From the NCBI GenBank assembly GCA_024137785.1, contig JAHRHZ010000073.1, positions 5,194,250 to 5,258,249 on the forward strand: a stretch of 64,000 nucleotides of DNA. The letters are read 5' to 3'. This document shows, one piece after another, positions 14,461-41,497 of this stretch. How positions within the stretch are numbered: position 1 is the first letter of the stretch; the number at the start of each line of letters is the position of its first letter. This DNA is from Ginglymostoma cirratum (Eukaryota). The notes under the pieces are model-generated. The model had not been told where the DNA came from. It worked only from the letters and a program-made list of their open reading frames with translations, and ran no database searches. Both the position numbers and the translations under genes were made by a program.

Positions 14461-14620
14461 AAAGAAGGCAAGGCAAATTTGACCACAAGAAACTCCCTAA
14501 CCTGATATAACATTTTGATGTTTTAAAAAGTTCAGACTGCATAATTAATGCTTTCATTTTAAAAGGAGGAGCCACAGAACTTGCAGATATCTATAGAATC
14601 TCCTCTATATAAATACAGTT
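14461..14620 (+). promoter_or_regulatory. col10a1 copy 1 proximal promoter (RUNX core ACCACA 14482-14487, GGAGGAG box, TATAAATA 14608-14615)
   Basis: Co-linear similarity to the promoter of copy 2 (62061-62226); TATA lies upstream of a donor site conserved between the copies. Confidence 0.8.
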
Positions 14621-14639
14621 GTCCTCATCACTGGAAAGC

Positions 14640-14735
14640 AAGTACTGTATCCCACTGCCATACTCTACACCAATTCAGAGGATAATCTGTTGAGGAATCT
14701 TTACGGAAGGAAGGTCCTGAAACCAACATATACTG
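14640..14735 (+). other. col10a1: col10a1 copy 1 exon 1 (5' UTR, non-coding; TSS approximate)
   Basis: Ends ...catatactg|gtatgtt, matching copy 2 ...aatatgctg|gtatgtt; COL10A1 genes have a non-coding first exon. Confidence 0.7.
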
Positions 14736-15297
14736 GTATGTTCCATTTAAAATTGTGTTAGCATATGAAAGAACAAGGATATCAGAAGAAGCATTCACTG
14801 ATTCTGCTAGCAATAACATTGTTTTGTAATTTTGTTAGAAGTGATCACATTTGTCAAAACCAGGAATCGCAAACTTCCTTTGCAAGCATGGAACTGTATT
14901 ATTTAGCAAGATGCAATTTGAAAAACACATGAACAAGTTTTAAAACTAATCTCACCTAACACTTTTCAGCTACAATCATGAATAATATTTTAAATTTAAG
15001 AACACCACACTTTGACAGAAAACATTTATGCAAGTTTTACATTCAAAAATTTGAAGGGGACCATCTGGAATGTTCTTGTCTTGTCAAAGATGTTAAGTGA
15101 AAATATCACTGTAACCTTGATACAGAAAACTTATTATCGTAACAATTTTTGCGAATGGAAACGTGGACAAAAACAGTCTCCATTGCTGCACATTTTAACA
15201 TCTAATTTCAATCTAATTTGTGTCAAAATCAAAGGCTTTGAATCCTGTTTTACATTGGAACTTATACAATTGCTTTTTTTTACATTTTAGTTGCAAC

Positions 15298-15409
15298 ATG
15301 GTTTCTAAGGAAATTGGTGCACTTATACTATCGCTGTCTTTGAACCTGGTTTACGGAACAGACTTTATCAGATATGTCTATCCAGCCTATAATATAAAAA
15401 GTTACGGAG
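15298..15409 (+). CDS. col10a1: col10a1 copy 1 first coding exon (exon starts 15291): signal peptide + start of NC2, MVSKEIGALILSLSLNLVYG/TDFIRYVYPAYNIKSYG
   Basis: Acceptor tttttttacattttag|, caacATGg start, donor ggag|gtaagt (phase 1); SLNLVYG resembles mammalian COL10A1 signal end SLNLVHG; paralogous to 62809-62911. Confidence 0.9.
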
Positions 15410-21722: not shown

Positions 21723-21794
21723 GTAATGAAGTAAACTTCCCTCATTCATTGAGCAATGAAGACAGTGAACACAACAGCAATTCAAAATCTGCAA
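21723..21794 (+). CDS. col10a1: col10a1 copy 1 mini-exon A (72 nt): (G)NEVNFPHSLSNEDSEHNSNSKSA
   Basis: Acceptor ttttgtttttcctaaactag|, donor gcaa|gtaagc, phase 1-1, open frame; start and end resemble mini-exon B. Confidence 0.75.
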
Positions 21795-23232
21795 GTAAGC
21801 TATACTCAGTATTTTGACATAGAGCAGTATTGTTTTTTAAAACAGACACAAGCTGAAGTGAACAATGCAAATTTACACTAAACGGCACTGGCATCTTGTT
21901 GTTATTGACTGCTCGTGTTTTAGACAGTGAAGAATTTATTAAGAACTATGCACATCATTCTAATATTTCATATCTGTAAGATCTACTTCCATTCCTAATT
22001 CATATTTTCATATCTGAAACGAAAATTCAAATATCAAGGCCACTATAAAACATAAAGCAAATGCCTGTTGTTCACTCAAAGCACAAAATCATTTTCATGT
22101 TTGATCAATCTTAAAAGAAAATAGAGACCAATTAGGAACCAATGAAGGGCCTAATTGTCAGTATCTAGCTCTGTTCTTAGATTTGTCTATTTGTCAACAT
22201 ATGCCTTTAATAAAAATGCTCTTTATGCCATCATTGCTAACATTAGTGGTCTCAAAATAAAGTTACATGCCCATGACCGTTTGTAGAACAGAGAAGCAGA
22301 TTTCTAGTTATTTTTTCCAATCCTCCTTAATTATACAAATTATAATACGGGACATGAGTAGTTACTGCAATACGTTTGCTCTTTTGGAAGAGTTCAATCC
22401 TTTGAGGTGTCAATAATAGTTCTATTGGTACACTTGATAATCTCAAAATCCATAATGTATCGGCATGTGAATATCCATTTCAGTCATTTTAAGTCAAGAT
22501 TTTCAGACCTTTGCAAAATAGGAGTCTCATACAAGTACGGACGTGATAGAATAGGCTTGTGCACACCCCGCACCCACCCCGGTCTTAATCAATTATGTTC
22601 CAGTAATCATAACTCTTCGTTGAGTGCATACACTTTCACAGTTTAATTTGTGTTCGCCTTTTAATTTCCCAACAGTCTGGCCACTGAATCTATTTTATGT
22701 CTGCTACACTAGTTAATCTAGCCTAATTGAGGGAAAACTCCCAGAATCTATAATTCAATGTAAATTAGTAGACACTAAGAAGTACAACTTTGTTTAATCT
22801 TCGTTTTCTTCTAAAAATGTAGAGGTAGAGACGCTGCTTTGGTTGAGGGAAAATTAAAGAAACATTTCCAGCAGCCAAAGACTTAGGGGCAGTAGGGTTA
22901 GTTTTGGATTACTGTAGCATACAGCATTGCAGACATCAGTCAACGGTTTCAAAATTTTATCATATTATGAATCCATCGTCAGGGCTCCGAAAAAAAAAGA
23001 AGTAAAATTACCTTACGTTGAAAATGATGCGCTGATCTTTTATGTACTGCAAATGGTTTATTGCTCATTAAAGCCATGGACAAGACAGAATTTGAAGACT
23101 TATATCTGAAAGACTGAATCCATCCTGTTTGATGCTTGCTCAAAACTTAATGCTTTGACCTTTGCCTTTCCTATTCCTAACTGAAACTGACAATATGTAG
23201 TGTCCCTTGATCCTCAGACCTTCTCCATATTA

Positions 23233-23572
23233 TGGGGAGGCAATGTCCTAGTAATTTTATTGCTAGACTATTAATCCAGAAACTCACCTAATATTTTGGG
23301 GAAACAAGTTCAAAACCTGCCATGGCAGATGTTGACATTTGAATTCAATAAAGGGTCTAATGATGATTAAACCATTGTCGAATGTTGGACAAAACCCAGC
23401 TGGCTCACTGCTGTCCTTTACGGAAAGAAACTCCCATCCTTACCTAGTCTGGCCTACGTGAGACTCCAGACTTCAGCAATGTGGTTGATTCTTAATTGCT
23501 CCCTGGGAAATTCGGGATGGGTGACAAATACTAGCTTAGCCAAAGGCACCCACATTCCAGGAGTAATTAAAA
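23233..23572 (+). mobile_element. tRNA-head SINE (DeuSINE-like)
   Basis: Homologous to 29695-30017 and 54660-55047; tail resembles the LINE 3' end at ~56560-56650. Confidence 0.65.
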
Positions 23573-23689
23573 ATTCACTAAAATAATCTGTGACCTTATC
23601 ATTACCATGACTGAAAAACACATTTATGCCTTTGACACTCTTAGACCCAACTTCCCAAGGATATTAGAGGATTAGCAAACTAATAGTAG

Positions 23690-24725
23690 ACAGTGTTTGG
23701 GATGAGGGGACATTTACAGGATGGCAACCTGTAACCAAAAGAATGCCACAAGGATTCGTGCTGAATAACATTATGGAGAGGAAGAACAGAGGAGCTGAAT
23801 ATTATTTAAATGGATAAAGACTGTAGAAAAATACGGCAAAGGGGAATTTGGGAGTTCTTGTACGTAATTCACGAAAAGCTAACATACAAGTTGAGCAGCT
23901 AATAGGGAATGCAAATTAAATCTTGGCCTTTATTTCAAAGGGAATGAATTACACAAATAGACAAGTCATGCTAAACAAGTCACAGGCTGGATCACACCTA
24001 GATTACAATCAACAGTTTGGGTCTCCTTATCTAAGGAAAGACACAATAGCATTAGAAGCAGTCCAGACAAGGTTCATTAGGTTAATCATGGGTATGCAGG
24101 GATGGTCTTATGAAGGGCCTGTACTTATTGTAGTTTAGATGAATTTAGTTTAGAGGCAACAAGATTCTTACGGATAACACAGTGTGGAGCTGGAGGAGCA
24201 CAGCAGGGCAGGCCGCATCAGAGGAGCAGGGAAGTTGAAGTTTCAGGTCAGGGCCAAAACGTCAACTATCCTGCTCCTCCGATGCTGCCTGGCCTGTTGT
24301 GCTCCTCCAGCTCCACACTGTGTTATCTCTGACTCCAGCATCAGCAGTTTTTAATATCTTCAAGATTCTTATGGGACTTGTCTGGGTCAATACAGAAATG
24401 TTGTTTCCTCTGTGGAAGAGTCTAGGGCCAGAGTGCAATACTCAGAGTTAAGGGTCACCCATTTAAGTTAGAGAGGGGGAGGCATTTTGTTCTCTCGGAT
24501 GGCAGCAAATTTGTGGAATTCTTTACTGCAGAGTGCTGTAGAGACTGGGTCATTAAGGATATTCAAAGCTGGGATAGACAGACTTCTACTCAATAAGGGA
24601 ATTGAGGGTTACATGGAAAATGCAGAAGAGTGAAGTTGAGCATTCAGATCAGCCATGATCTCACTGAATAACAAAGTAGGGTCAATGGAATGAAAGGCCT
24701 ATTCCTGCTCCTACATCTAATAGTC
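23690..24725 (+). mobile_element. CR1-type LINE 3' fragment interrupted by a nested insertion
   Basis: ORF 23923 ...QFGSPYLRKDTIALEAVQTRFIRLIMGM.. is CR1 ORF2-like. Confidence 0.8.
24171..24360. mobile_element. Palindromic Penelope-like insert nested in CR1, 11-bp TSD
   Basis: Inverted arms gataacacagtgtggagctggaggagcac... / ...gtgctcctccagctccacactgtgttatc; caagattctta at 24160-24170 and 24361-24371. Confidence 0.75.
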
Positions 24726-27199
24726 TTCTTTTCACTTGACCCCTAAGATCCATCCAACTCAATGCTCAACCACCTACATCCATGTTGCCTGAATTCCTGC
24801 TCACTTGATTTTCACCTACTCATTTTTTTGCAGCCTCTCTTCACCAAGTTTCCAAACATATCCTCCGCACTGTTAAACTTCATGGTCCTGCATGTTTGCC
24901 CTTTGTCCGATCTACTATAGTTAATACAGCCTCCGGTCAACTTTACCACATATTCTGAAAATATATCTTTAGATCCTTCCCTCATGTTATATCTATTACC
25001 TCCCTAAAAGCCTTATATTTCAACAGTCGACCTTCCAACTGTTCGTCACATTCGCCACAGTCCTACCAGACCATCAGACTGCTTTCTCTCTCTGTCTCTC
25101 TCTCTCATTAGAGATGACTGGTGGTGGTTTAACTTGAGGGTCACCACACCTCAGCCAAGGGGAGAGGCTGAGACAGGGATCCCCACATACTATAAAACAC
25201 CTTGGTGTACTTGTTATGTTAAAGATTTGTCATCGGTATTATCTGCTGCTGTTGTTGCCATTTGCTGACAAGAGTCATACGCGGAATAAAATGATTTCAG
25301 CAAGAAATTGGTGGGTGGCAGAGCTCCAGCAACTAGTGTCAAAAAATGCTTTTGCAGGTGGAAGAAAATTAGCAAAGAAAAGATTAATCATTAAAAGTGT
25401 CATGTACCTTTAGAAATGATGAACGGATTGATTTGTCAAAATAAGATGAAAACATCATTTAAGAACAACAACTGGATACAGTTTCAACAAACTAAATTAA
25501 CAATGCAGGTTTCTTTTTACATAACTGCGCTGCTGTAAGTGTCTGTATTATGGGGAAATATTAAGTACTAAAATATTTTTTATTTTTGTAACAAGTCAGG
25601 TCAACAGGTTTAATTTTGTAAACAGTGGTCAACAAGTTCTTGATTTATACAACATCTATGTTTTATACACTGGTAGTTAATGTTTGATAGAGTAAGTCTC
25701 CATTGACCACCACAAGAACACACTTTCCCTCTACCTAAACTGTCAGAAAAGATGTGCTTTCTTCAGAAATTTTCAGTTCCTGATGTTTTTTGTACATCTT
25801 GAAATATTTAATTTAAAAATATGCAATTTAGAGTATAATTGAATTGTTTGTGCTTTTTAATGTTGGTTTTAAGGTACATTGAGAGAAGAAACTATGTATG
25901 TATTTAGGCTATCTAAAAATGGAATGCTTTTCATACTTGAAGTTACTGTGCAAACAGAGCACAAGTTGGGAGGTGATAGTTGCACCCTATCTCAAAGCCA
26001 ATATAAATAATACCTGTGGTGTTTTACATCCAACCACTGTCTCTCACTCCTTTTTGGAAACCATAGGGGAGTTTAACACGACACACTATTGCAACAGAAT
26101 CTGAGCTCGTTACATAGGGTTTCGCAACAGATGTTATAACAAAACTCAACCTAAATGGGATGTTGGGGAAAGTCAAAATAAATCAATTGTGCACCCTATT
26201 GTTAAAGAGCAATACAACAGTATTGTAATAGCATGTCAGCTGCCTTGGTAAGACCTAACTCTAACCTGCAGCACCATGATTGGCTTGAGTTGTTGCTGAC
26301 TGCTGGTATAGTAAAATATTCTGATTAGACAAGAATTTTTTGAGACTGAAACCATCTTATTTGTCCGTCAGTAGTCACACCTATATACCCCCGATTCAGA
26401 CCCCTTCTATCTAATTTGCTCCTTACTTTGATTTGATTTAACTTTGATGCAACCTCAGTTCCTGTCCAAACCTCATTGAGTCTTAAGCCTTATTTGAGAT
26501 TCAATGCAGAAGTCACCTTCTTCCAAATACAAAATAGTGATGACTGCAAAAGAAAAATCATACAAAAGCTTTTATCAACTCCAGGATCGATTCACCATGA
26601 GAAATAGGAGCATTAGGCCATTCAGCTCATCAATTCTGCTCCACCATTCAATGAGATCAAGGCTGATCTGATAATCCTCAATTCCACTTTTCTGCCTTTT
26701 CCCCATAACCCTTAAAGCCTGACTCACTTCCCTTTGACTGCTTCACTTTTTCCAAAAGTTCAACTTATCAAGAACTCTGAAGACTGAGACATTTTGGACA
26801 CAAAGTACGAGCAGAAATCCCCCGTCAACTTCACTAGCTTCAGTGCCACAGAAAATTGTTTCTTGGATCCTCATCTAAGCTTACAAACTACTCAATAAGC
26901 TTATACAAGCCTCTTCAGCCCAATGTGTTCTGTTCTAATGAGCCAATGTCTCGCACAGCCCCAAGTTAACAAAACTGAAAACGCCTCCTATAACTTGTGG
27001 TTGCAGCCAATAGGGCCAGAATGGAAGATGATTCTCACTTCCCGAAATATTTGGGATAGGTTCAGTTGATTTTAAACAAACAGAAGTTCTGACACATGCT
27101 CGGCTTGATTTGAGAAGTTTAGCAGAATTGTTTTTCTCAGATTGAACAATCCATCTTCCTTAGAAATTTTTCCACCATAGGAGGTCCACCTCCAGTTCT

Positions 27200-27960
27200 T
27201 ATTCTCAGCCCATTATAAAGCTCTTTGGAACAAGTTTTATTTCATTATATCCATCCCTTCAAACAAACCAATTCTTTGGCTATGCCATTAATTTGCTTCC
27301 CATTACAAATTCATCCATTCTCTCTACATTTCGGGTGATATTTTTCCTTCAATCTTTTTTTAACTTCCGACTTCTTACCTTAAATCTATGCCGCCTCGTT
27401 ACCTACCACCTCCACCAAAGGGAAAAGATTCATCCCATCTAGACCCAGCACAGTTTTGTACACTTCAACCAGGTCCTCACTCAGGATTCTCTACTCTGAG
27501 GAAAATACTCTCAGCCTACCCAGTCTCTCCGCATAGTTAAAATGCTCCAACCCAGGCAACATTCTGGTGAATAGTCTCTTCTGCGTCTTTCTAGCGCAAT
27601 AAATTCCTTCTCATAACGTGACAACCAGATCTGCACACAGTACTCTGGTTGTGACCCAGCTAATGTCTTGTACAATTCCATCATAACCTCTCAGCTCTTG
27701 TACTCAATACCTTAACTATTAAGACCAAGTACCTCATATGCCTTCTTAACCATATTATCTATCTGTCCTGTGCTTTCAAGGATCTACGAACATACTCACC
27801 AAGGTCTCTCTGATCCTCCGTACATTCTAGCGTCTTATGGACTCCCTTGCCTGTAAGGCCTCCTGAAATGTATTACCTCTCACTTTTCAGGATTAAACTT
27901 CATCTGCCACTGTTCTGCCCATCTGATCAACCCCTCTTTATTGTCTAAGGATTTCCTCCT
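27200..27960 (-). mobile_element. Decayed CR1-type LINE fragment
   Basis: Similar to 2200-2580 (accagatctgcacacagtactc... is the reverse of EYCVQFWS). Confidence 0.65.
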
Positions 27961-28452
27961 TGCTTTGTATTAGTGTGGGTTCGGAGTTTCTTTTGGGCCT
28001 GATTATTTAGGCTGCATTATGATCATTTTGTCAGCACATTCTAACAAGATTAGGAGGATATTTTGATCCAATATCTGTGTTATACCCAAAGAAGTAGCTG
28101 AAGCCAGAATTTTTTTTTAACCTAATTCTTCACCCCTGTTAAAATTTCCACAGCTACTTCAATTTCTGCAATACTCTTAGCTTAATTCAAACTGTGCACA
28201 ATCAAGACATTATGCGAATTGAGATCATAACTTCTTGTCCTACTAAGTCTGATGCCTGAAGCAATACTGCAAATTAGGTGGGCTTGTATTACTATTTTAT
28301 AACTGTGCTCAAAACTTCTTTTCTAAAAAAAAAAATGACCTGACGAAAATTAGAATGGACAGAACTGCTCCCTCTAAAGCACTTCTTTTAATAATATTGT
28401 GAAAAAGTGTAGATATTCACGTATTTGTAATCTTTTTCTTTCCCTGAAATAG

Positions 28453-28515
28453 GCAATGAATTCAAAGGGAATAGTGGACCAAGCGATGAAAACAATGGTG
28501 ACTCTAATTCAGCAA
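28453..28515 (+). CDS. col10a1: col10a1 copy 1 mini-exon B (63 nt): (S)NEFKGNSGPSDENNGDSNSA
   Basis: Acceptor tctttttctttccctgaaatag|, donor gcaa|gtatgc, phase 1-1; homologous to exons C-E (x-x-KG...E-N..NG.SNS). Confidence 0.8.
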
Positions 28516-29029
28516 GTATGCTCTTTTTAATAATAAGTTTCATTCAATATTCACATTAATTACGGTTATGTGAGCTATACAAATACTTTATAGCTGCTCC
28601 TTAAGTTCAAAAATTCAACTTACAGTCTTTGAAGATGGCTTAAAATCTTTATATCAAAATCTTGCATAAAACACAAAAACGTCAGAGCGATAATAATGTT
28701 TATTATTATTTTCCAAAACAGGTTATCAAATAAAAGGGAAATACTCGTGGAGGATTGATGACAATGGGCAAAATGGCGACTCAAATTCCGCAAGTATGCA
28801 AGATTTAAGCTTAACATGTATGACAGGTTTATTTATCCAAGAAATAAGCACCTTTACACTCACTGTTAAAAGCTCCAATTATCAAAGTTTGATATGAAAT
28901 CAGAAGAGCTAACTCGAGAAACCCACTACATATTGTCATTCTCTTGCCATAAATATGACAGGAGCATAGTAGAAGTAATGAAAAATAAGTCAGATCTTTC
29001 TTGTTACAGGTCTGTAAAAACCACAACAT

Positions 29030-29480
29030 ATAGAAAGCAGAATCAGGCCATTCGACTCATCAAGTCCGCTCTGCCATTTGATCAAAGCTAATACGTTTCT
29101 TAACCCCATTCTCCTGCCTTCTTCCTGTAATCTTTGATCCCCATACTGATCAAGAACTTCCGTTTCTCTGTCGTAAAAATACTCAGTTACTTGCCTCCAC
29201 AGCTTTTCGGAGCAATGAGTTCCACAAATTCACCAGTTTCTAGCTGAAAAAAAAATCATCCTTCTATCATCCCAGCATTTCTAGCCACAGGGAGCTGTGG
29301 GGCAGGTTTTATATATAAGGCTAAGATAGATAGATTCTTGATCAGGAGGAGAATCAAGGGTTACAGGCAAGAGCAGGAAAGTGGGCATGAAGATTGTTGG
29401 ATCAGCCATGCTCTTAATGAATGGTGAAGCAGATTTGACGGGCCAAATGGCCTACTCTAGCTCCTATTTCTTCTGGTCTC
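29030..29480. mobile_element. Two LINE 3' ends in inverted orientation (29030-29260 minus, 29290-29480 plus)
   Basis: Both match the CR1-type tail family; partly reverse-complementary. Confidence 0.6.
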
Positions 29481-29694
29481 TAGGTGGATTTCTTTGCAGT
29501 GAAATGTTGCCAAGTACTTTGATGCTTGATTTGCAGTACCAAAATTCAGGTCCAAACCTGGGTCCTTGCATTTACTCTCCAAATGACCCAATAGAGTCTA
29601 TGCATACATATAGAGTTAGGCTGCTAGAAGCAACAGTTGTTCAGATAAAACTGGCTAGCATTGTTTTTCCTGATTCCTTCAGATTTTATTTACC

Positions 29695-30017
29695 AGGGAG
29701 GCAGTAGCCTATTATAGCTGGACTTTTAATCTAGAGGCTCAGGTAAAGTTCTGGGGACCAGTGTTCAAATCCCCAATAGCAGATGGTGGAATTTGAATTC
29801 AACAAAGGCAATCTGGAATTAAGACTCTATTGATGACCATGAAACCAATGACAAGAAGGAATCCATCGGGTTCACGAACATCCTTTCGGGAAGGAAAATG
29901 CTATCCTTTTCTGATCTGGCCTAAATGTGACTACAGACCTGCAGCATTCACCCTTAACTGTCCTCTGGGGAATAAATAATTGCCTAGCCAGCGACGTTCA
30001 CATTCCATCAATGAATC
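29695..30017 (+). mobile_element. tRNA-head SINE (DeuSINE-like)
   Basis: Homologous to 23233-23572. Confidence 0.65.
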
Positions 30018-32270
30018 ACTGAAAAGGTTTGCAACTGATTGGATTATTTAGAGCTGATGAGCTTGAAGAACCCCTATGTATGTCACAGTGGATGTTAGAT
30101 GCATTACTCAATTCACCAAAGCATTCGCGACAGAGGAATTGTATCTTCTGATGACTTAAATAATAGAATTGAAAAATTACAATAGAGATGGAGAAACAAT
30201 TCAGGTACTTACACATTACCAATTTAACACACAATGTAAACAAGTTGCTGGAAACTAATCAGTGACACAGCAACTAAATACTTGGACAAATATCAGTGAA
30301 TGGTAGATCAAAGTCTGATTGACTACTTTTAATGATGTTAAGAGCATGGTGGATTAGGAGATACGATGATGCAAACAGATCAATAACAAATGAGAGAACA
30401 GAATCAGAAATAGCTACGTGTTCAGTATCAGCAACTAGCTGAGAGATAGAAGACAGAGATCAAGGAAATCACCTCTGTAGCCACTGATATCAGCAAGTTG
30501 GAACCTGGAGGCCATGAATTCACCCATGAGAAACCTAGGCCATGCGTGCCCGCTCAACAAACTTGCTTGTGGCTCATCAAAAAATGAATTCTACTGAAGA
30601 AAAGTACAACACAAGTACTATTTAAAAGTCTAGAGACCTAACATAAAAGTAATCTAGATGACAATTTCTGTACAGATTTTCTTGAAGTACAGTCCAGTAT
30701 TTTTGGAGATGTGGGTGCCGAGTTATCTAACAGGGCAGCAAGTGTTGCTGTATCTTCACAGGGAAGGTGGACAATTTTGTGATCTGTTTCCACAAGGGTG
30801 CAACAGGTAGGTTTGGGGGTGAAGAGAGAGGGAGAGAGGAATCTACAGTGCAATACCTTTGGGTGAAGAGGGGATGGAGATAATCGTAGATTGGTTTTGG
30901 AAAGTGACCATTCCGGCCATCATCTTTGCAGCAGCAACCGAGACCCACTTCCCCGCCTTTATCTCCAAATATTTCCCTTTCACGTAATGATCCAACTCAT
31001 TTAAAAGTCATATTTGAATTTGACTATATAATAATTTCAGACCCCAATGAATTGCTCGCAAATGGTTTCTTCTGCTGTTATCACTCCCCTTAAATCAGTG
31101 TCCTCTGGTTATCGATCCGTCTCCAATGAGAAGCGTTTTTGTCCAGAAACCTCAGCTTCATTAATCTATCTGCCAATATGCCAGTAACAGTCAAGTCAAT
31201 GTTTTGTACACGCTTAATATCCTTGCTGCGAGTGTGAAAGCTCTGTACAGTGCCTACAATCAAACTGGAGCTCGATTCATCCATACTCCTAGTTAGTGAC
31301 AGGAGACTGTCTAGAATGTAAGTCAATGCATCCAGCAGCTTGGTATATATTGTCAATTTTCTCCTGCTAACCACCTCATTGAGGTCCTCTGTGATTGTGC
31401 GCTGGCTGTATCTATTCTTTCCTCAGGTCTGGCAGCAGCTCACACAGGTTTAGTGACTCAACCTGCTTTGATCCTAACTCCTCACTAGCCCCTAAAATGC
31501 ATTCAATGCTGATATCTGAGCAGGTGGCTTCCAGTGTCAGATCAAGTGATGAGGCCTTTTATCAGCATTGTGGCATTACTATTTCTCTTCCTGCTGGGCA
31601 CGTGGTAGTTCCTGGATTTCTGAAAACAGAAAATCAAAGAAAAGGGCTGAGTGGAAAACAACAGATCCATGGTCACTCAATAACTACTTATAGATCATGC
31701 CAGATTTGAACTGGGAGCTCAGAAATAAATGAATATACTGTCATCTTAATGTCCATTTGTAGCACAGTCAAGACACAAAGGACACAGATTTAAGGTAATT
31801 AGCAAGAGAAGCTGAAGTGGCATGGGGAAATAATTGTTTGAAAACTGAATTCGTGATTAAAATTGGAATGCCCTACCTGAAAAAGGGAGGTGAACTAGAT
31901 TCAATTGTGTTGTTCAAAAGAATGTTGTTTAGCACCTGAAGGCAAAGAAATTGCAGGGATGTGGAACACGGTACTAGTTAAGTGAGGCTAGGTAATTTTT
32001 TATTCCAGAGAACCAGCTAGGACTCTTTTGATTCTATAATTCTACATGAAAAATTAATAAAAGGTTTCCTTGAATAACTTGCAAAGAAAACAGGGAAGAA
32101 TAACCACGCTATTCACACGCTCCCTCTGGTTAGCAAAATTCAAGCCACAGTACAAAATAACTCTACACCATAATTTTTACTACTCCCTTTAACCAATCAT
32201 TTAATAAGCAGTTAACTTCGCCTTGGACCAATATATAAAAACTAATAAACGTGGATAGCAAAGGCTAGAA

Positions 32271-32552
32271 AGGCGGCATGGTGGTTAGCACTGCTGCCTC
32301 ACAGTGCCAGGGACCCGGGTTTGATTCCAGCCTCGGGCGACTGTGTAGAGTTTGCACATTCTCCCCCTGTCTGCATGGGTTTCCTCTCACAGTCCAAAGA
32401 TGTGCAGGTTAGGTGGACTGGCCATGCTAAATTGCCCATAGCATCTAGGATGGGAAATGGAGGGATAGGGTAGGGGTTGGTCCAGGTGGGATGCTTTTCG
32501 GAACGTCAGTGTAGGCCAAATGGCCTGCTTCTACACTATAGAGATTCTATGA
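32271..32552 (+). mobile_element. HE1-like V-SINE
   Basis: tRNA head ggcggcatggtggttagcactgctgcctcacagtgccagggacccgggtttgattcc, V-domain gagtttgcacattctcccc...gatgtgcaggttaggtgga, CR1-type tail ...gattctatga. Confidence 0.8.
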
Positions 32553-32601
32553 ACAGTAAACATAGTGTGGCAAAAGATCATTCCAAGTACTTTAAATCAT
32601 A

Positions 32602-32720
32602 TTTTCTAAGGATTTGGATTAGATTTGTAGCTTGGGTTGTGGATGTTGAGGTTGGTTGGCTCGCCAAGCTGGTTCGTTGCGGAACATCAACAAACCAGCT
32701 CGGCAAGCCAACCAATTTCA
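32602..32720. mobile_element. Short hairpin insertion with aatcata direct repeat
   Basis: ttgaggttggttggctcgccaagctggtt / aaccagctcggcaagccaaccaatttcaa inverted; aatcata at 32595-32601 and 32720-32726. Confidence 0.55.
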
Positions 32721-34809
32721 ATCATACTTATATGTCACATTCATTACAATGTAATGAAACAAAATGTTACTTACTTCTAAGATCCTGATTAATACAAGAT
32801 ATTGTGCACAGGCTAATAGCTTACAACATCCCTATTTTCATGACTTGTAATTCCCTGCAGTTTTCTGAAAGTATTTTTCAGCTTCATATCAATTGCTGGT
32901 TCTTGACATATGTTCTATCAGGCTTAAATTTTTATACATTACCAACTTTAGTTAAAACTCTTTAAATCTATTTTGTATGTATGGAAAAACTAAACAGAAA
33001 GCTAATCCCAGCAACTAAATAAGCTATTTAAATTTAACCCATTTTGTAAACAGAAAATCTATCAACAAAAGGAATGGTTAATATGGAATAAATTGTTGTG
33101 GTACATCTGGCATGAATCAAACATGTTCTCAGTAGTGAAGTCTTCTCTACTCAATAGTTTACTTCATACAAATTGTCAACATGAATCTGCTATAAATTGT
33201 TATCTTTATCAATTCTCTCAGAGGAATGCCTCATGATCAGCTACACATTCCTTTCTAATGTCCTTTAGTGCCTCCCATCTTCCTGCTCTTGTATCTATAC
33301 ATTTCATGCTTGAACACTTCCAGTCTACCTTCTTCACTTTCACATCCAGCAAACAGCCTTTTTTCAAAATCCTCTCTAGTGTCATCTATGATGATGACCA
33401 GTAATACTTTCTTTCCTCGTCCACTTTTGTGACATCCTCCTTCAATGAACTGTGGCATTTAAGAAAGAACTTGCATTGATCTGACATTTTGTCAGAGCCT
33501 CAGGATATCAGAATGTGCTTCACACCCACTGAAGAACACTTGATGTGTTATCACTTAGATAAATTAGAGGAAAACTGTAGCCAAGTTGATTTCAGCAAAG
33601 TCCCATACAGTGAGAAAAAAAAATCACAATCTGTTCTACTCATATTTGTCAAATTGATACAAAAAAGTCCATGAAATTGGGAAAACTCAAATTCCTGTTT
33701 CTCAGAAAGCTTTAGTATAATGTTCATCTAAAAGGTGTCATCTCCAGCCTGATCATTATGCTTGTAAGGCACAATAATTTCCAGTAGATGTCAGTGTCTA
33801 GCAATGGGAACACGGCACAATGTTCTCGCTTTGCCTGTAGGACAAACTGTAACAACTATTTTTCTATTTGGAATGGGAACTTACTAATTTAGCAGAGATA
33901 GTTGCTAACCCCTATCACTAGGTATATTTACTCATAATTTAATTGCCTATAATTTTGTTCTTAAAAGTTAGTTTGAAGATTGATATGCAAGATCAATCTA
34001 ATTTCATTTTTAGTTTCTTTTTCTACAACACTAAATAAAGCTTGGTATCCACAGCAATTTCTCAAATCATTCCAATATCTGCTCAGAAATGCTTTTTATA
34101 CCAGTTCAAGTTTCAAAATAAGCCATTTCAAAATCCATGTTGCATTAGCTTTTCTGTGCATACAGTTGCTGCCCTTGAGCTTCTTTCCAGCAGTCCTGAG
34201 CAGCAAAGAGCTTCAATATAGGTGTCAAAAAAATTGAATGCAAGTTCACGTGAGATCAAGTTGGCATAGGGGGAATTTTTTTTCCCCATTTTGTTTCAAT
34301 TCCAGTTATGGAATCTTATATACCCATAGCACACAAACATTCAGAGATACATTTCCTGTTATTTTTAAAACATCAGAAAAATAGACATATCTAAACAAAC
34401 AGAAGCAAAAAAAATTTGAAATGCTCTACACTGCCAAGGAAAAAGTATTTTTTATTGCAACATCTATACACCTAAATTGTCAATAATAACACAAGCATAA
34501 AATAGCATCAGCACATGTTTACAAAAGGTACTTTATTACCCAGATTAAATACATGGCTATTTATGGACCGTCAGTTGCACACAGTTCACATATAAGTTGA
34601 CAACTTGAGTTTTGAGTTCAGCCTTTTGAGTGATATGAAAGATTGTACTTGACTAGCATAATTTTCTGTACAATAAACCCATCTCAATAAAGTCATGATG
34701 TGTGAAAATACACATTTGTTTACTTTGGCAGGAAAAATAGAAAAGCTTAATACTATTCACATGGAGAGATTGCAGGGCTTGGTGGTACAGAGGGATTTCC
34801 AGAAAACCG

Positions 34810-35460
34810 ATCATGATAAAAATTAGTATACAGGTATGCAGCAACTGTTCAAAGGCATTGAGAATGCCGGTGCCAATTGGAAAAACCGAATATAGAAATA
34901 GGGAAATTTTTTACAGTTGTGCAGGGCCTTCAGACCACATCTGCAGTACTGCATACATTTCTGGTTTTCTTCCTTGAAAATCGCTTACATAGTGGTTCTG
35001 AAAAGGTTCATTCAACAAATTTGAGATGAAGGACTTTTCCTAGGAAGAAAACTTGAACAGACTGGGGTTAAACTCACTTCTAGTTTAAAGGAATGAGAGG
35101 TGAACTTATTGAATCATTTACAATCTTGAGGGGAGTCTATCGGGAAGATACAGAGGATATTCCCTCTTCCGGGGGAGACTAGAATCAGAGGACACAGTTT
35201 AAGAACAGGAGATCCCCTTTAAGGCAGTGACGAGTAAGGAACATTTTCCAGAAAACGTTAGTCTATGGAAGACTCCTCCCTAAAAGTAGTAGTAGCTTGG
35301 TCATGGAATTTATTCAAAGCAGAGTTAGATGGACTTATGATAGACAAGGAAATCAAGGGTTTTGGGAACAGACAGGAAACTGGAATTGTAACCACATGAA
35401 AACCAGCCACGATTTCGTAAAATGGTGAAGGCGGCTCAAACGGCCAAATAGCCTCTGAAT
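34810..35460 (+). mobile_element. Decayed CR1-type LINE 3' fragment
   Basis: agaccacatctgcagtactgcatacatttctgg (RPHL.YC..FW) and tail similarity. Confidence 0.7.
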
Positions 35461-35995
35461 AAAGGGAAAATTGCAAAGTGACTCAGCAAAAATCACTGGT
35501 GCACATCTTAGTGTTTGGTCATAATCACAAAGGAGCAAAACAAGAATCCTTGAAGAAGCTTGTTTATTCAATGTCACCAATAGGAAAGGGCATGGCTGGA
35601 CGAGATCTCAGAAGAGACCAATACAGCCTACGAAGCACTAAAATAACCAAAACAGAAATTATACTTGTTTTCCTCACTTATATGTTTCCTGCTCACCAAA
35701 AACAATCGGTAAATCATTCTGATTAACAGGAAACACCAATGTGTTTCCAACCACACACAAGCAAAAAGCTTTTCAATTTTAATAATTTAAAGCTATCATT
35801 CACAAAGAAACAAGCTTTTGTTGTCTATATATAATAGACCTGACAATTAAAAGCGCTGCTGGGGTTTATAATTTATAACCATTTTTAAAACTTATGAAAG
35901 TATTTATTTCAGGTTTTATCTGTTGACTGCAATGTACTTTAAGCAAAAGTGCTTGAAAAAATTCAATGAGGTTAATTTTGTCTTTCTATAAACAG

Positions 35996-36067
35996 GTCAT
36001 GAAACAAAAGGACAATATTCACAAAGGTCTTCTGAAGAAAATGAACAGAATGGTCATTCCAATTCTG
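35996..36067 (+). CDS. col10a1: col10a1 copy 1 mini-exon C (72 nt): (S)HETKGQYSQRSSEENEQNGHSNS
   Basis: Acceptor ttttgtctttctataaacag|; clear paralogue of D/E; the homologous donor reads ctaaat, and a weaker in-phase GT (tctg|gtacta) lies 3 nt upstream. Confidence 0.55.
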
Positions 36068-36494
36068 GTACTAAATAACAAGTCACTTTATTTGTCCTTT
36101 CAGAACACAGGCACACTTCAAATTTAGCAATGGGACAAAGACAGTTTCTTTGTAAAAGTAGTGAACTTGTGCACAATAAATGCAGAATTAAGGGCCATGC
36201 GCTGTTAACCTAAATGCTGAGCATTCAAAACTCAAAGCAAACTGTGAAACTGGACTGAGTTAACCCAGATTGTGAAAAACTAAATGGGTCATTATATTGA
36301 GTTGGAAACAGCAGACTACCATCCTTTATCAGTCTGGCATACAGGTGTATCCAGTTGTTATACTACATGGTTGACTTTTAATTTTCAGTGAAGTGGTCGA
36401 GCATGTCAGCCACTCAATTAGCAATGAGTATTTGCTACAGAAATTAGCAATAATATTGGATGGTCAGATGAACACTAGCCTTGTCACCATAATA

Positions 36495-36634
36495 AAGAAC
36501 TGCAGGTGCTGGAAATCTGAAACAAAAACAAACTCAGGTCTGGAAGCATCTGTGGAGAGAAAGCAAACCTAATGTTAACTGAGTCTTTCTGCACAGATGC
36601 TGCCAGATCTGCTGTGTTTCTCCAGCAATGTCTA
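36495..36634. mobile_element. Palindromic Penelope-like insert with ~16-bp TSD
   Basis: ccttgtcaccataata 36479-36494 / ccttgtcaccacaata 36635-36650. Confidence 0.7.
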
Positions 36635-36950
36635 CCTTGTCACCACAATAGACAGTGCAGCAATCTTACAGCAGTCAGCCTGGAAAAAGTCTGACAGCTG
36701 GTAACCCGGTTGGGAGACTAGCACACCAGGGTTACAAAAACTAATTCAATGCCTGGTTTAAATCTGTTAATTGGAGTAGATAGACAACAGTTACAAGTAT
36801 ATTTAAAATTTCCAAGTGTAAAACTCATGATAAATTATGCTTCATCAGCAATTTTATGTTTTAATTTAAGAATCTTACTTTAAGTAGTGCACATTAACAA
36901 ATACTAAAACTAAAAAGCGAATACATTTATTTTGTGTACTTCCCAAACAG

Positions 36951-37028
36951 GTCAACAGGAGAAGGGACAATACCCGAGAAGATCATCTTCTGAAGAAAAT
37001 CAACAGAATGGTCACTCTAATTCTGGCA
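36951..37028 (+). CDS. col10a1: col10a1 copy 1 mini-exon D (78 nt): (G/S)QQEKGQYPRRSSSEENQQNGHSNSG
   Basis: Acceptor tttgtgtacttcccaaacag|, donor ggca|gtgagc, phase 1-1; 61/78 nt identical to exon E. Confidence 0.85.
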
Positions 37029-37439
37029 GTGAGCAAAAAATCCTTTTATTTCTGTAGAATAAAGTTGTTCTTTACTGGCTCGTGCAAATTACAAGTTCAT
37101 CAATGGTGTGAAGAAGCTTTCACTTAATTGCATGGAATAAACATGGAGTTGTGCTAATCAAAGTGTTGACTTCAAATCCTCTTTGGAAGAGTTGCCCTTC
37201 AGGAATGCATATTGAAAATAATTCAATGTCTAGCTTAAAATCTATTAATTAGAACAGACAGACAACAGTTACAACATATATTTAAAATTCCCTTCTGTAA
37301 AATCCACAATACAGACAATTAGTTCCTGGTGAAAGTTTTATTTTCAATTAGAATTATTGCTTTTATCATGCAATATTAATAAATGATCAAACTAAGAAGA
37401 GGATTCATCATGTTTGATTTTATTGTATATTCAAAATAG

Positions 37440-37517
37440 GCCAACAGATCAAGGGACAGTATTCAAGGAGATCATCTTCTGAAGAAAATCAACAGAATAG
37501 CGATGCCAATTCTACCA
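37440..37517 (+). CDS. col10a1: col10a1 copy 1 mini-exon E (78 nt): (S)QQIKGQYSRRSSSEENQQNSDANST
   Basis: Acceptor tattgtatattcaaaatag|, donor acca|gtaagc, phase 1-1; synonymous differences versus D. Confidence 0.85.
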
Positions 37518-37937
37518 GTAAGCTGTGTACTTTTATGCATGAGGCAAATTTGTCCTTATGTTGCATGAAACAAACAGGTCGATCCAAATTAATTGACATA
37601 CCATTTCTGTTATTGACTAACCTCAGGTGATATCATAGAAAAAAGGGGCAAGAGTAGGCCCTATGACCCTTCGAGCTTGCGCTGCAATTTGTTATGATCA
37701 GAGTTGATCTAACTCAGTATGCTGGTCCTGCTTTATCTCTACCCTTTATCCCTGAGAACTATGCCTAATTACTTCTTGAAAAATTCAAAAGGTGGGGATT
37801 TTAAAACTGCACTCATAACTTGCTTCTATAAAAATTGCGATGCAGACAGAAAAAGGTATTGAAAAGTAATACTTAGAATGTGAACGATAAAATGTCAAGT
37901 GAAAAACAACAGCTGTGTTTTATTTTTACTAAAACAG

Positions 37938-38033
37938 GCGATGAAAGTAATGGCCACGATTTAGAAGACATTGTGGAGAACAATAACTCAGATTTTTCTT
38001 CCTCTTCTTCCTCCTCCTCCTCTTCTTCTTCAG
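37938..38033 (+). CDS. col10a1: col10a1 copy 1 mini-exon F (96 nt): (S)DESNGHDLEDIVENNNSDFSSSSSSSSSSSS
   Basis: Acceptor tttatttttactaaaacag|, strong donor tcag|gtgagc, phase 1-1; splices in frame to EEEYGEPG. Confidence 0.85.
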
Positions 38034-39662
38034 GTGAGCTGTATGTAATTATCATATGCAGAACAGCAGAGTTCGAAAATACTATCAAGACCATATGAAC
38101 AAGAAAATCTATTTTTAATGCCCTTTCTCTACATATTAACTTGGAATACAGGTCTGATCAGCTATTTCATTATGGAAACTTGTCAAGATTCGGCTGGTCA
38201 TTTTGGCAAAACAATCAATATTCAACCACTTTATATTTCAGTTGTGTTTTGAGCATGGTGTTCAACCACTCAGGAACCACATTTTCTTGCAAACATTGGA
38301 AAAGATCAGAGATATGGAAGTAAGACAATTAATACTTCAAAGTAAAATAAATAGTTAAAACTAACAGTCCAATTGAAGTTATGAAGCTGCATTAAAAAAT
38401 TAAAAGAAATTAAACAAAAAGACAAATTTTTTTGCCAAACATTTTATTTGTATAACATAGGTTTAAATGTTTAAAACAATATACAGTAAACAGGCAGGTG
38501 TAGTGGGCTGTGAAGAAAAGTTTTTTCAAGACCAGACACAGACGGAACCAGACCTGCAAGTGAGTAGACAAATAAGTCACGGCAAAGTGGTCAGAGTGGC
38601 GTTATTTGTGATTGAGATCTGCCTTAGTAGTCTCTTGATTTAGAATAATGAATTTCATTTCACATGGATCCCTCAGTACTCCGTGCAAATTTTTACCGAT
38701 TTTAAAATATTGAGCTAACTACGGAGTTTTTACTGCTATTCTCTCCCCATAAAATTCTAATACAAAATAATCATAATGAGGCTAAAAGACCCATCTCACT
38801 TCTGGCATAGTCCAGCTATGGTCATAAATGTGTCAGAACTGAAATATAGTGTATCACAGCATTATAATGGTTGAGTGTAAAGGTCAGAGCTTCTACCAGA
38901 CCAGAACAAGACAACTGAGAAATACCTTATTAAAGCTGTAAGATTCCCTGTTTCCAGATGCTGAAAGGCCAGCTGGTTCAATTGCCTAAGTATGCTCAAT
39001 GGCATATATCTTTCCTGCTTGGGTTCCATGCCTACATAGAGACTTGGACTGTCCTTGGAAAATACACACATACATAAAAACATATATACTTGTTTCCTTA
39101 CAAAACAGGCTACAAGGACATTTAGTTTTCCTTTCCAGGGATGCAAGCATTTCACCTCTTTCCTGCTCACCTGTAATTCCTGCACCACCCCCAACTTCCT
39201 AGCAGTGACTGGCCAAATTTCCTGACTCGGACTGGATTTAAATGCCTCAGGTGTACCCCAATTCTGTGAAGACAGGAAAACCACTCCCAGCCAAGCCATT
39301 AATGTCCACCAGGGTTACTAGCAGAGGAATTCAATTCTTTCCTTCCTAAAATTAGAAGTGTTTTAATATAATCAGATCCTATTACTTGTATTCTAACGAT
39401 ACTACATCATCAGATACTCCTGAGCTTTAAAATGATACGTGAAATAATATTTCACCAGCCTTTCTTATCAGAAAGGGAACAGAAGAGCACTTCTTCCCTC
39501 GTGACAATGGCTTTGGTCACCTGAGGTATTTTGTGTAGTATAGATAGACTAGTGCAAACAAAAAAAATAATAGAATTCAATTCTTGCTGGAATACAACAT
39601 ATAGTGCACACTAATTGCATTCTAACACAACAACCTGAATGGCATTTATTTATTTTTAACAG

Positions 39663-41497
39663 AAGAAGAGTATGGAGAGCCAGGTCCACCAGGTCCACCT
39701 GGATTACCAGGACCAATTGGTCCACCAGGATACCCAGGAAAGCCAGGGTTTGGGCTGCCAGGTCATCCTGGTAAGCCTGGACCACCCGGACCACAAGGAC
39801 TATCAGCTATTGGAAAACCAGGCGGCCCAGGAGAACCAGGAAAGCCAGGTGTGCCAGGGTCTCCTGGCCGAAAAGGGGATAAGGGATCTCAGGGGATGCA
39901 AGGACCTAGAGGACCTCCAGGACCTAGTGGACCACCCGGACCAGCTGGGTTATCTGTTATTGGGAAACCAGGACCTAAAGGATCACCAGGTCCTCCAGGA
40001 ACACTTGGATTTCCTGGAAGAAAAGGGGATCCAGGATACCCTGGTTTACCAGGACCAAAAGGAGATAAAGGTGTTGGAATTCCAGGACGTCCTGGTGATA
40101 AAGGTGCTCCAGGACCACGTGGTCCACAAGGACCACCTGGTCCAGAAGGTAAAGGACTCAAAGGACCCCCAGGTCACAAAGGTGAACCAGGACACAAAGG
40201 TGAAAAGGGATCACCAGGGTCCCCTGGGCATCCAGGTAAGCCAGGCCAAGATGGTCCACCAGGACCACCTGGTAAAGATGGAATTGGGAGGCCTGGAATA
40301 CAGGGACCACGAGGAGTTCCTGGAATGAAGGGTCACCCTGGTCTGCAAGGTTTGCCAGGTTCACCTGGGTTGCCAGGTGTCGGAAAGCCAGGCCTTCCAG
40401 GACTCAAAGGACACCCAGGTTCTCCTGGATTGACGGGAAAGCCTGGAGATAAAGGAGAGAAAGGATCATCTGGAGAACCTGGACCTCGCGGGCCTGTAGG
40501 ACCACCTGGGTCACCAGGACCAAAAGGCCCAAAAGGTCCACCAGGTAATGTTGGTGCACCAGGAGAGAAAGGTCATCCAGGACTAAGGGGTCCAGAAGGG
40601 CCTTCTGGGCCAAAAGGTGAGCCAGGATCAAAAGGTGAGCAAGGAAAACCCGGGCCTCCAGGAAAGTCAGGTGCAGAGGGTAAAAAAGGAGGACCAGGTC
40701 CATCTGGTGAAAAAGGTGATAAAGGGCCTGTTGGGCCACGTGGCAAAGCAGGGAGTCCAGGTCCTCAAGGTCCTCAAGGGCCACAAGGGCCTCCAGGTAA
40801 ACCTGGAGAGAAAGGACATCCTGGATTACCTGGTTCAGTAGGTCTAACCGGGAGTCCAGGTTCTCCAGGACACCCAGGAGTGAAAGGAGATCCTGGGGTC
40901 CCAGGACCACCGGGTCCTCAGAGTAAATTTAATGCAAAAATCATAAAGGGGCCAAGTGGTCCACCTGGACCAAAAGGAGCAATTGGTCCACCAGGCATTC
41001 CAGGAGCCCCTGGTCCAGCAGGTCCACCGGGAGAAATTATTATACCAAAAGGAAAATATGCAGGTTATAGTGGTTACATCGATTCAGGTGGCGTGGTGAG
41101 TCCTGTTCCAGCATTCACAGCCATTCTTTCTCAGCCATATCCTCACAAAGGGCAACCAATAGTGTTTGACAAGATACTGACCAATTCAAATAACAACTAT
41201 GATTCATCAAAGGGAATTTTCACATGTGAAATATCTGGTATCTACCAATTTTTTTATCATGTACATGTTAAGGAAGCAAATGTTTGGGTGGCATTATATA
41301 AAAATGATGAACCTGTAATGTACACGTATGATGAATATACACCACAATACGTTGACCATGCATCAGGAACAGCTATCTTACATTTGGATGAAAATGACAA
41401 AGTATATGTACAATTACCTGCAGAAAAGTCTAATGGTGTGTACTCTTCTGAATATATGTATTCATCATTTTCTGGGTTGTTAATAACACCATCATGA
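39663..41497 (+). CDS. col10a1: col10a1 copy 1 terminal exon: Gly-X-Y triple helix with imperfections + C1q (NC1) domain
   Basis: Acceptor tttatttttaacag|, phase 1; helix start [22 protein letters not shown] is co-linear with COL10A1; NC1 [26 protein letters not shown] fits type X better than type VIII; helix and NC1 in one exon. Confidence 0.93.

What the first reader, a model, noticed from the sequence alone, without database searches (positions are those of the whole stretch)
21723..38033. All mini-exons are symmetric phase 1-1: a modular cassette and evidence for convergence rather than SCPP fusion
Seen: lengths 72, 63, 72, 78, 78 and 96 are all multiples of 3, and every flanking intron is phase 1, matching the ancestral COL10A1 intron-2 phase. 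Any subset can be skipped without a frameshift (up to 64 combinations). Established: SCPP coding exons are separated by phase-0 introns. Inference: the domain arose inside the collagen intron by exonisation and duplication, independently of SCPP genes, and alternative splicing could tune phosphoserine load between tissues.
Basis: partly seen in the sequence, partly recalled or inferred. Interest (0 to 1): 0.75.

Follow-up and report, generated by a model that had tools for sequence, protein, structure and literature searches.

The report
Duplicated acidic mini-exons in shark collagen
A known shark tooth-and-scale collagen carries a known acidic, serine-rich segment, which turns out to be built from seven copies of one small exon that its sister genes hold once; this supports the already proposed idea that sharks evolved a mineral-binding collagen without borrowing from bony-fish dentine genes.

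Summary
The window holds shark Col10a1.5. Its serine/acidic (SE) domain and the idea that it converged on DMP1/SCPP were published in 2019 (PMC6759074). The exons are real and all phase 1-1, but there are seven, not six. 35996-36067 was missed, so 128 subsets stay in frame, not 64. All seven recur in order in a horn-shark gene model. The symmetry is one inherited fact, because the exons are tandem copies. Not found in the papers I searched: Col10a1.2, .3, .4 and .6 each hold one such exon in the same intron. Catshark cDNA splices it into .2, .4 and .6. A catshark .1 cDNA lacks it, and no match was found in shark Col8a1 or Col8a2. The exon's 5' half resembles the end of exon 2. So an exon gained once in early cartilaginous fishes, probably by partial duplication of exon 2, was amplified in .5. 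It was not exonised in this gene. Phase favours a non-SCPP origin, but the homology search was weak and this shark's own scpp was not located. Splice tuning is untested: no reads were laid. Interest is moderate.

The parts
14606..14735 (+). Putative TATA box (14606-14613) and non-coding exon 1 ending at a GT donor after 14735; 5' end unknown
   Evidence: Seen in sequence; inference only
15291..15409 (+). Exon 2: ATG at 15298, signal peptide and start of NC2, ending in a Y-N-I-K-S-Y-G motif; 112 coding nt, phase 1
   Evidence: matches the published whale-shark Col10a1.5 N-terminus and the horn-shark model
21723..21794 (+). Mini-exon m1, 72 nt, phase 1-1
   Evidence: 21 of 23 residues identical to the horn-shark unit
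28453..28515 (+). Mini-exon m2, 63 nt, phase 1-1
   Evidence: 14 of 20 to horn shark; similar unit in the catshark transcriptome sequence
28722..28793 (+). Mini-exon m3, 72 nt, phase 1-1; no S-x-E site
   Evidence: 15 of 23 to horn shark; similar unit by eye in the elephant-shark prediction, none in the catshark transcriptome sequence
35996..36067 (+). The donor homologous to m5's reads CT instead of GT; a weak GT lies 3 nt upstream
   Evidence: 19 of 23 to the positional horn-shark unit, which is one residue longer (75-nt form)
36951..37028 (+). Mini-exon m5, 78 nt, phase 1-1
   Evidence: 22 of 25 to horn shark; shares upstream intron sequence with m6 (z 20.6; 489-nt period)
37440..37517 (+). 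Mini-exon m6, 78 nt, phase 1-1
   Evidence: 21 of 25 to horn shark; present in catshark and ray transcriptome sequences
37938..38033 (+). Mini-exon m7, 96 nt, phase 1-1, acidic with a poly-serine run; holds 13 of 32 predicted primed phosphoserines
   Evidence: 25 of 31 to horn shark; joined to the collagen exon in catshark and ray transcriptome sequences
39663..41497 (+). Terminal coding exon: Gly-X-Y helix and C1q (NC1) domain, entered in phase 1
   Evidence: Pfam Collagen E 6.5e-65 and C1q E 5e-34

Best explanation
The gene is chondrichthyan Col10a1.5. After Col10a1.1 split off and before Col10a1.2-.6 arose, one small exon was gained in the ancestral phase-1 intron between the signal-peptide exon and the collagen exon. 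Its 5' half probably came from a partial duplication of the 3' end of exon 2 (the NC2 Y-x-x-K-G/S motif), followed by an acidic S-S-E-E-type stretch. Paralogues .2, .3, .4 and .6 kept one copy. In .5 it was copied in tandem to seven, giving a 177-residue Ser/Glu/Asp/Asn-rich segment between signal peptide and helix. Symmetry allowed these genomic gains and losses; it does not by itself imply regulated skipping. Likely function: odontoblast FAM20C phosphorylates the 13 S-x-E sites (up to 32 serines with priming). The collagen X trimer then presents three polyanionic, probably disordered tails that bind calcium and promote apatite growth in dentine, working like DMP1 without descending from it. 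Most transcripts are expected to include most exons, with m4 and m5 the likeliest skipped. Shown here: gene identity, exon boundaries and phases, tandem homology, single copies in paralogues. From papers: odontoblast expression of catshark Col10a1.5 and fam20C, and cDNA inclusion in catshark. Inferred: exon-2 origin, dating, phosphorylation, mineral binding, isoform use.
For: Identity: about 10 differences by eye from the published whale-shark Col10a1.5; fourth of six Col10a1 copies on C73. Composition S 27%, E 10%, D 6% lies within the published SE range. Paralogue exons in G000 C73.2 5115272-5115343 (72 nt).3 5154641-5154700 (60).4 5191418-5191489 (72).6 5260448-5260486 (39), all 1-1. Catshark cDNA riboprobes include the unit in .2.4 and .6 and join exon 2 straight to the collagen exon in .1. 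A DNA profile trained only on the .5 exons ranks the .3 exon 1st (E 0.002) and the .2 exon 2nd (E 0.056) of 193 hits in 234,690 bases. Col8a1 (8 frame-keeping candidates) and Col8a2 (27) show no comparable exon; mouse Col10a1 has two coding exons. Exon-2 link: mini-exon starts match exon-2 ends better than shuffles (0 of 600, both with one exon per gene and with all 11). The catshark .4 unit starts with the same six residues that end exon 2 of .5. Shark Col8a2 exon 2 ends in K-G-Q-Y like m4-m6 (2, 10 and 4 of 2000 shuffles). All seven units occur in order in horn shark. Expression.
Against: The protein profile did not pick out the paralogue exons: ranks 181 (.3), 411 (.6) and 811 (.2) among 10,622 ORFs, and .4 was not listed. 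In the DNA profile .4 (rank 9, E 14) and .6 (rank 49, E 65) are not significant. Mononucleotide shuffles do not control for shared Ser/Asp/Glu codons. The exon-2 resemblance rests on 6-residue matches noticed before they were tested; m1, m2, m7 and .6 show little of it. The 2019 paper reports a CDD DMP1 hit for this domain. A weak 27-nt frame-keeping candidate exists in Col10a1.1. The catshark transcriptome sequence lacks an m3-like unit that window, horn shark and (by eye) elephant shark have, which could be skipping. The horn-shark support is an automated, fused gene model. No reads, phosphorylation or mineral data from this species.
Confidence: 0.66

Rival explanations
1. One reading: the array is a regulated cassette whose combinatorial skipping sets phosphoserine load by tissue or stage.
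For: 128 of 128 subsets keep the frame, and predicted S-x-E sites range from 0 to 13. Donors of m4 (5 of 9) and m5 (4 of 9) are weak against the consensus. Class 1-1 exons are about twice as common among alternative exons. Casein splice variants with different phosphate counts are a precedent (abstract). The catshark sequence lacks an m3-like unit.
Against: Symmetry follows from tandem duplication: 108 of 118 near-identical adjacent human exons are symmetric. Catshark and ray transcriptome sequences show runs of consecutive units through m6 and m7. m7 alone holds 13 of 32 primed sites and has a 7 of 9 donor. Catshark expression is concentrated in secretory odontoblasts and is under 1 TPM in vertebra, which leaves few tissues to tune between.
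Confidence: 0.2
2. The acidic exon was captured from sparc-L or elasmobranch scpp and then duplicated.
For: CDD DMP1 annotation in the 2019 paper. Elasmobranchs do have an scpp, with S-x-E sites and one phase-1 intron.
Against: Acidic SPARC/SCPP exons are 0-0 or 0-1, not 1-1. The unit profile hit 1 protein (horn-shark Col10a1.5) among 1,835,955,588 representatives. No DMP1 family in the Pfam scan of that protein. The unit's start matches collagen exon 2. m1-, m3- and m4-like units appear by eye in elephant shark, which is reported to lack scpp. Caveat: the 23-column profile also missed single-copy paralogues in other sharks, so it has little power.
Confidence: 0.06
3. The mini-exon is older than cartilaginous fishes: the ancestral NC2-coding exon was split by a phase-1 intron gain, or a jawed-vertebrate exon was lost in bony fishes and in Col10a1.1.
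For: The K-G-Q-Y motif is shared with the end of the Col8a2 exon. Shark exon-2 coding parts are short, 73-112 nt.
Against: In .4 and .5 the Y/N-x-K-S motif is present both at the end of exon 2 and in the mini-exon, which is duplication, not splitting. Col8a1, Col8a2, mouse Col10a1 and the catshark .1 cDNA lack the exon, so several losses would be needed.
Confidence: 0.1
4. The single exons of .2, .3, .4 and .6 arose separately and resemble the .5 exons only through shared selection for acidic serine-rich sequence.
For: Weak or absent significance for .4 and .6, and failure of the protein profile.
Against: Same intron, same phase and similar size in four genes. .3 and .2 top the DNA profile search. 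The catshark .2 unit begins H-Q-I, like catshark .5 units. The earliest-branching paralogue lacks it.
Confidence: 0.1

Closest known systems
Chondrichthyan Col10a1.5 with its SE domain (Debiais-Thibaud et al. 2019, PMC6759074)
   Same: Same gene and domain, same composition, same convergence hypothesis. The short acidic motifs that paper noted in Col10a1.2 and .4 are the single exons found here.
   Different: The paper's main text does not describe exon structure or phase of the domain (11 uses of 'exon', all on synteny). Its whale-shark model lacks m3, m4 and m5 and contains intron-derived stretches.
Acidic SCPPs (DMP1, DSPP, SPP1) and caseins
   Same: Secreted, acidic, S-x-E-rich, grown by duplication of small symmetric exons; odontoblast expression; splice variants known in caseins.
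   Different: Phase 0 and SPARC-L-derived, against phase 1 and collagen-derived here. They are free proteins; this segment is tethered to a trimeric collagen with a C1q domain.
Elasmobranch scpp (Leurs et al. 2022, PMC9122587)
   Same: An independent cartilaginous-fish route to an SCPP-like phosphoprotein.
   Different: It is a duplicate of sparc-L 5' exons (introns 0, 0, 0, 1), ameloblast-specific, with Y-rich and PDYXXPXX repeats; none of these is seen here.
ODAPH (PMC7807025)
   Same: A tooth phosphoprotein with an S-S-E-E motif and phase-1 introns; phase is used there to exclude it from the SCPP family.
   Different: Small non-collagenous enamel protein with cysteines; homology not tested.
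Tandem arrays of symmetric, disordered exons (Schad et al. 2013, PMC3632108)
   Same: General mechanism that explains the all-symmetric pattern.
   Different: Here the single-copy state can still be seen in sister paralogues.

Membership tests
Col10a1.5 (chondrichthyan type X collagen) | Signal-peptide exon plus one exon for the Gly-X-Y helix and C1q domain | tested here: met
Col10a1.5 (chondrichthyan type X collagen) | Fourth copy in the tandem cluster of six (.2, .3, .4, .5, .6, .1) | tested here: met
   (order of six C1q hits on C73); paralogue starts match the published ones
Col10a1.5 (chondrichthyan type X collagen) | SE domain between signal peptide and helix (S 21-31%, E 10-12%, D 5-8%) | tested here: met
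   S 27.1%, E 9.6%, D 6.2% over 177 residues; alignment
Col10a1.5 (chondrichthyan type X collagen) | Lies in intron 6 of Nt5dc1, on the opposite strand | not tested
   Nt5dc1 exons were not searched
SCPP family | Coding exons separated mainly by phase-0 introns | tested here: not met
   8 of 8 coding introns are phase 1; the feature is stated
SCPP family | SPARC-type signal-peptide exon and origin by duplication of sparc-L 5' exons at that locus | tested here: not met
   The signal exon is the Col10a1 exon 2, phase 1, in the Col10a1 cluster; this shark's SPARC signal exon is 57 nt, phase 0
SCPP family | Acidic composition with S-x-E (FAM20C) sites | tested here: met
   13 S-x-E sites; phosphorylation itself not tested
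SCPP family | Sequence homology of the unit to SPARC-L/SCPP exons | tested here: inconclusive
   No hit among 1.84e9 representatives or in Pfam, but the profile is short and weak; sparc-L/scpp not located in G000
SCPP family | Expression in mineralising cells | not testable with these tools
   Catshark odontoblast expression from PMC6759074; no data for this species
Tandem array of duplicated symmetric exons | Adjacent homologous exons of one symmetric phase | tested here: met
Regulated alternative-splicing cassette | Several isoforms seen in RNA, with tissue- or stage-dependent ratios | not tested
   No reads were laid on the locus; only frame compatibility is shown

The most novel reading that the evidence does not exclude
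Each repeat is a two-part module: a duplicated NC2 lysine motif (Y/H/Q-x-x-K-G/S, resembling the Y-D-E-K-S lysyl-oxidase site of the collagen I N-telopeptide seen) followed by a FAM20C phosphoserine cluster. Col10a1.5 would then be a covalently fibril-anchored mineral nucleator, the shark stand-in for DMP1 and dentine phosphoprotein, with cross-link and phosphate numbers set together by exon copy number across species and by exon skipping within a tooth.
Probability: 0.12. Interest if true: 0.72.

Novelty: new variant of a known kind. Interest (0 to 1): 0.42.

Why it matters
How sharks mineralise dentine without the acidic SCPP genes of bony fishes is an open question, and the 2019 convergence idea rested on composition alone. 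Exon phase, the single-copy state in sister genes and the link to exon 2 give that idea a traceable history: one exon gain on the cartilaginous-fish stem, then amplification in the odontoblast paralogue. This adds a second chondrichthyan route to an SCPP-like phosphoprotein, beside elasmobranch scpp, and makes the claim testable by RT-PCR, comparative genomics and phosphoproteomics. It also corrects public gene models. The mechanism, tandem duplication of a symmetric exon, is ordinary.

Tried and rejected
RNA evidence: one search listed 23 runs for the collagen exon, with no RNA holder on record, which is no evidence either way; no reads were laid on the locus, so isoforms stay open. Protein searches with the C1q part (3 hits among 343 candidates), the helix start (best 120 mostly other collagens) and the mini-exon alignment (0 of 5142 candidates) returned no shark Col10a1.5 isoforms. 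The DMP1 family search of G000 was uninformative: nothing rang in the controls either. The atlas gave no usable hit for the horn-shark SE domain, which shows neither absence nor novelty. Pfam on 9 single mini-exons and exon 2 gave 0 families, but they are too short to count. sparc-L/scpp was not found in G000 by family, SPARC exons or a published primer (12 of 22 primer matches translated, none scpp-like). An 'AAAYAG acceptor signature' of the mini-exons was dropped, because the Col8a2 terminal acceptor and a SPARC acceptor have it too. A repeat-like stretch in the Col10a1.6 intron (C73 about 5258740) was rejected: no acceptor. A possible micro-exon near window 25874 did not pass the candidate scan. 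Genome-wide searches with m5 and m6 found only m4-m6. Earlier-findings look-ups returned nothing. Kawasaki 2009 was not held.
Full report
What the locus is. The window carries a plus-strand gene with a signal-peptide exon (15291-15409, ATG at 15298), small internal exons, and one large exon (39663-41497) with a collagen helix and a C1q domain. Six such C1q exons lie in tandem on G000 contig C73, and this is the fourth. The predicted 825-residue product differs from the published whale-shark Col10a1.5 at about ten residues by eye. It is Col10a1.5 of a shark close to the whale shark (inference). PMC6759074 already describes its serine-rich acidic 'SE' domain, its expression in secretory odontoblasts of catshark teeth and scales, a CDD similarity to DMP1, and a possible convergent origin. 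Of that paper I read text parts 1-3 of 7, word passages, and supplement parts 1, 6, 7 and 8 of 8 plus passages. Two supplement pages were pictures and could not be read.

The observation. A seventh, m4 at 35996-36067, was missed. It aligns with m5 and m6 (z 13-16, 0 of 300 shuffles). At the position of m5's donor it has CT instead of GT, and a weak GT lies 3 nt upstream. A profile of the units searched against 1,835,955,588 representative proteins returned one protein, a fused horn-shark gene model (XP_067876004.1). It holds all seven units in order at 21/23, 14/20, 15/23, 19/23, 22/25, 21/25 and 25/31 identity, against 524/610 for the collagen exon. Its fourth unit has the extra residue of the 75-nt form. 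All 128 subsets of the seven exons stay in frame. Catshark and ray transcriptome sequences show runs of the same units ending in m6, m7 and the collagen exon. No reads from this species were laid, so exon use here is inferred.

Why all are symmetric. The exons are copies of each other: m1-m6 form one network and m7 links through m4; m5 and m6 share about 250 nt of upstream intron (z 20.6). A tandem copy of one exon keeps the frame only if it is symmetric, and in a phase-1 intron it must be 1-1. In human genes 108 of 118 highly similar neighbouring exons are symmetric (PMC3632108, sections 16 and 17 and passages). So the pattern is one inherited fact. The host intron is old: exon 2 ends in phase 1 in 6 of 6 Col10a1 paralogues and in this shark's Col8a1 and Col8a2.

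Where the exon came from. I fetched 200 kb around the window and scanned each paralogue's intron. Col10a1.2.3.4 and .6 each hold one 1-1 exon of 72, 60, 72 and 39 nt. Those of .2.4 and .6 are the most acidic frame-keeping candidates in their introns, among 6, 4 and 2 candidates. The .3 exon falls below the acidity cut and was picked by its resemblance to m3. Catshark cDNA riboprobes in the 2019 supplement show the unit spliced into .2.4 and .6, while .1 joins exon 2 directly to the collagen exon; the .3 probe does not cover the region. A DNA profile trained only on the .5 exons ranked the .3 and .2 exons first and second of 193 hits in 234,690 bases (E 0.002 and 0.056). It ranked .4 ninth and .6 49th, neither significant, and a protein profile failed. 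Col8a1 and Col8a2 introns gave 8 and 27 frame-keeping candidates, none resembling the unit (400 bases of the Col8a2 region read N). Mouse Col10a1 has two coding exons (PMC2134813 passage). With the published branching order (.1 first, then .2), the simplest history is one gain after .1 split off. m1-, m3- and m4-like units in the elephant-shark prediction (by eye) place the start of amplification before the holocephalan split.

The first 11 residues of the mini-exons match the last 11 of exon 2 better than shuffles do: 17.0 against 10.3 with one exon per gene and 14.9 against 11.1 with all eleven, 0 of 600 each. The catshark .4 unit starts with the six residues Y-N-I-K-S-Y that end exon 2 of the window gene. 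Shark Col8a2 exon 2 ends in K-G-Q-Y, as in m4-m6 (2, 10 and 4 of 2000 shuffles; m3 66, m7 124, m2 210, m1 1715). These were noticed before they were tested and are short, so I put the exon-2 origin at about 0.55. If right, the source was collagen coding sequence, not neutral intron.

SCPP fusion or convergence. SCPP introns are described as all phase 0 (PMC7807025 passage) or mostly so; elasmobranch scpp and sparc-L have 0, 0, 0, 1 (PMC9122587, section 5, passages and supplement passages). This shark's SPARC has phases 0, 0, 1 around its acidic exons. An intact acidic SPARC or SCPP exon would be read out of frame in a phase-1 intron. No SCPP or SPARC protein was hit by the profile, and Pfam DMP1 did not score on the horn-shark protein. 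These negatives are weak: the profile has 23 columns and also missed single-copy paralogues from other sharks, and sparc-L/scpp was not located in G000. Independence from SCPP is likely (about 0.85) on phase and on the collagen-internal source.

How it probably works. The seven exons give 177 residues (S 27%, N 15%, E 10%, D 6%), with S-x-E sites of 1, 2, 0, 3, 2, 2 and 3 per exon, or 5, 2, 2, 3, 3, 4 and 13 if phosphoserine primes the serine two before it (the priming rule is recalled). fam20C is expressed in catshark odontoblasts. Phosphorylated tails on a collagen X trimer would bind calcium and favour apatite growth in dentine (inference). Splice tuning is possible but unshown. For it: weak m4 and m5 donors, 1-1 enrichment among alternative exons, the casein precedent (PMC6437144 abstract), and no m3-like unit in the catshark sequence. 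Against it: consecutive units in both transcriptome sequences, a narrow expression domain, and the concentration of sites in m7. Catshark and ray units are more alike within species than between them by eye, which suggests turnover at the genome level.

Novelty. Gene, domain and convergence hypothesis are known. The exon architecture, the single copies in sister genes and the exon-2 link were not found in four library searches. PMC13188829 passages mention only col10a1.4 expression. Subscription journals, bioRxiv supplements and public genome annotations were not seen and may already show these exons. The telopeptide resemblance in the novel case began as a recalled motif; passages of PMC5932954 and PMC12216727 show the peptide, but nothing here tests cross-linking.

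Verdict. Observation partly confirmed, interpretation partly supported, interest 0.42.

Noticed in passing
window 36068-36076: The m4 donor homologous to m5's reads CT instead of GT; a new GT 3 nt upstream keeps the frame (72 against 75 nt). Best candidate for skipping or recent decay.
   Followed up: partly
window exon junctions m1-m7: All mini-exons start G-T/C, so the split codon is always Ser or Gly. Three S-x-E sites (starts of m2, m4, m7) exist only when the upstream exon ends in A.
   Followed up: partly
window 62794-62911: Exon 2 of the next paralogue, Col10a1.6 (103 coding nt, phase 1); a TATA-like run near 62132 and a donor like that of the .5 exon 1 near 62338.
   Followed up: partly
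P0004 (XP_067876004.1): The horn-shark model fuses a reverse-transcriptase fragment, Col10a1.5 and Col10a1.6 and is named collagen alpha-2(IV)-like; it contains the .6 mini-exon unit.
   Followed up: partly
PMC6759074 Suppl. Fig. 3 against window 19419-19605 and 38460-39660: The published whale-shark Col10a1.5 model includes intron-derived stretches, omits m3, m4 and m5, and runs on into Col10a1.6.
   Followed up: partly
G000:C73:5336434-5336460: A 27-nt frame-keeping exon candidate with good splice sites in the Col10a1.1 intron; absent from the catshark .1 cDNA and unrelated to the unit by the tests run.
   Followed up: partly
PMC6759074 Suppl. Fig. 3, catshark row: The catshark sequence goes from an m2-like unit straight to three m4/m5-like units, with no m3-like unit: genomic loss or skipping.
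   Followed up: no
G000 C289 35.73-35.75 Mb: Only one SPARC-type gene was found; sparc-L and elasmobranch scpp were not located in this assembly.
   Followed up: partly
window 2324-2740 (-): Open frame resembling the end of a LINE reverse-transcriptase ORF (recalled resemblance); several SINE/LINE-like pieces lie in the introns.
   Followed up: no
window 10866-11021: Two copies of an 81-nt tandem unit upstream of the gene.
   Followed up: no
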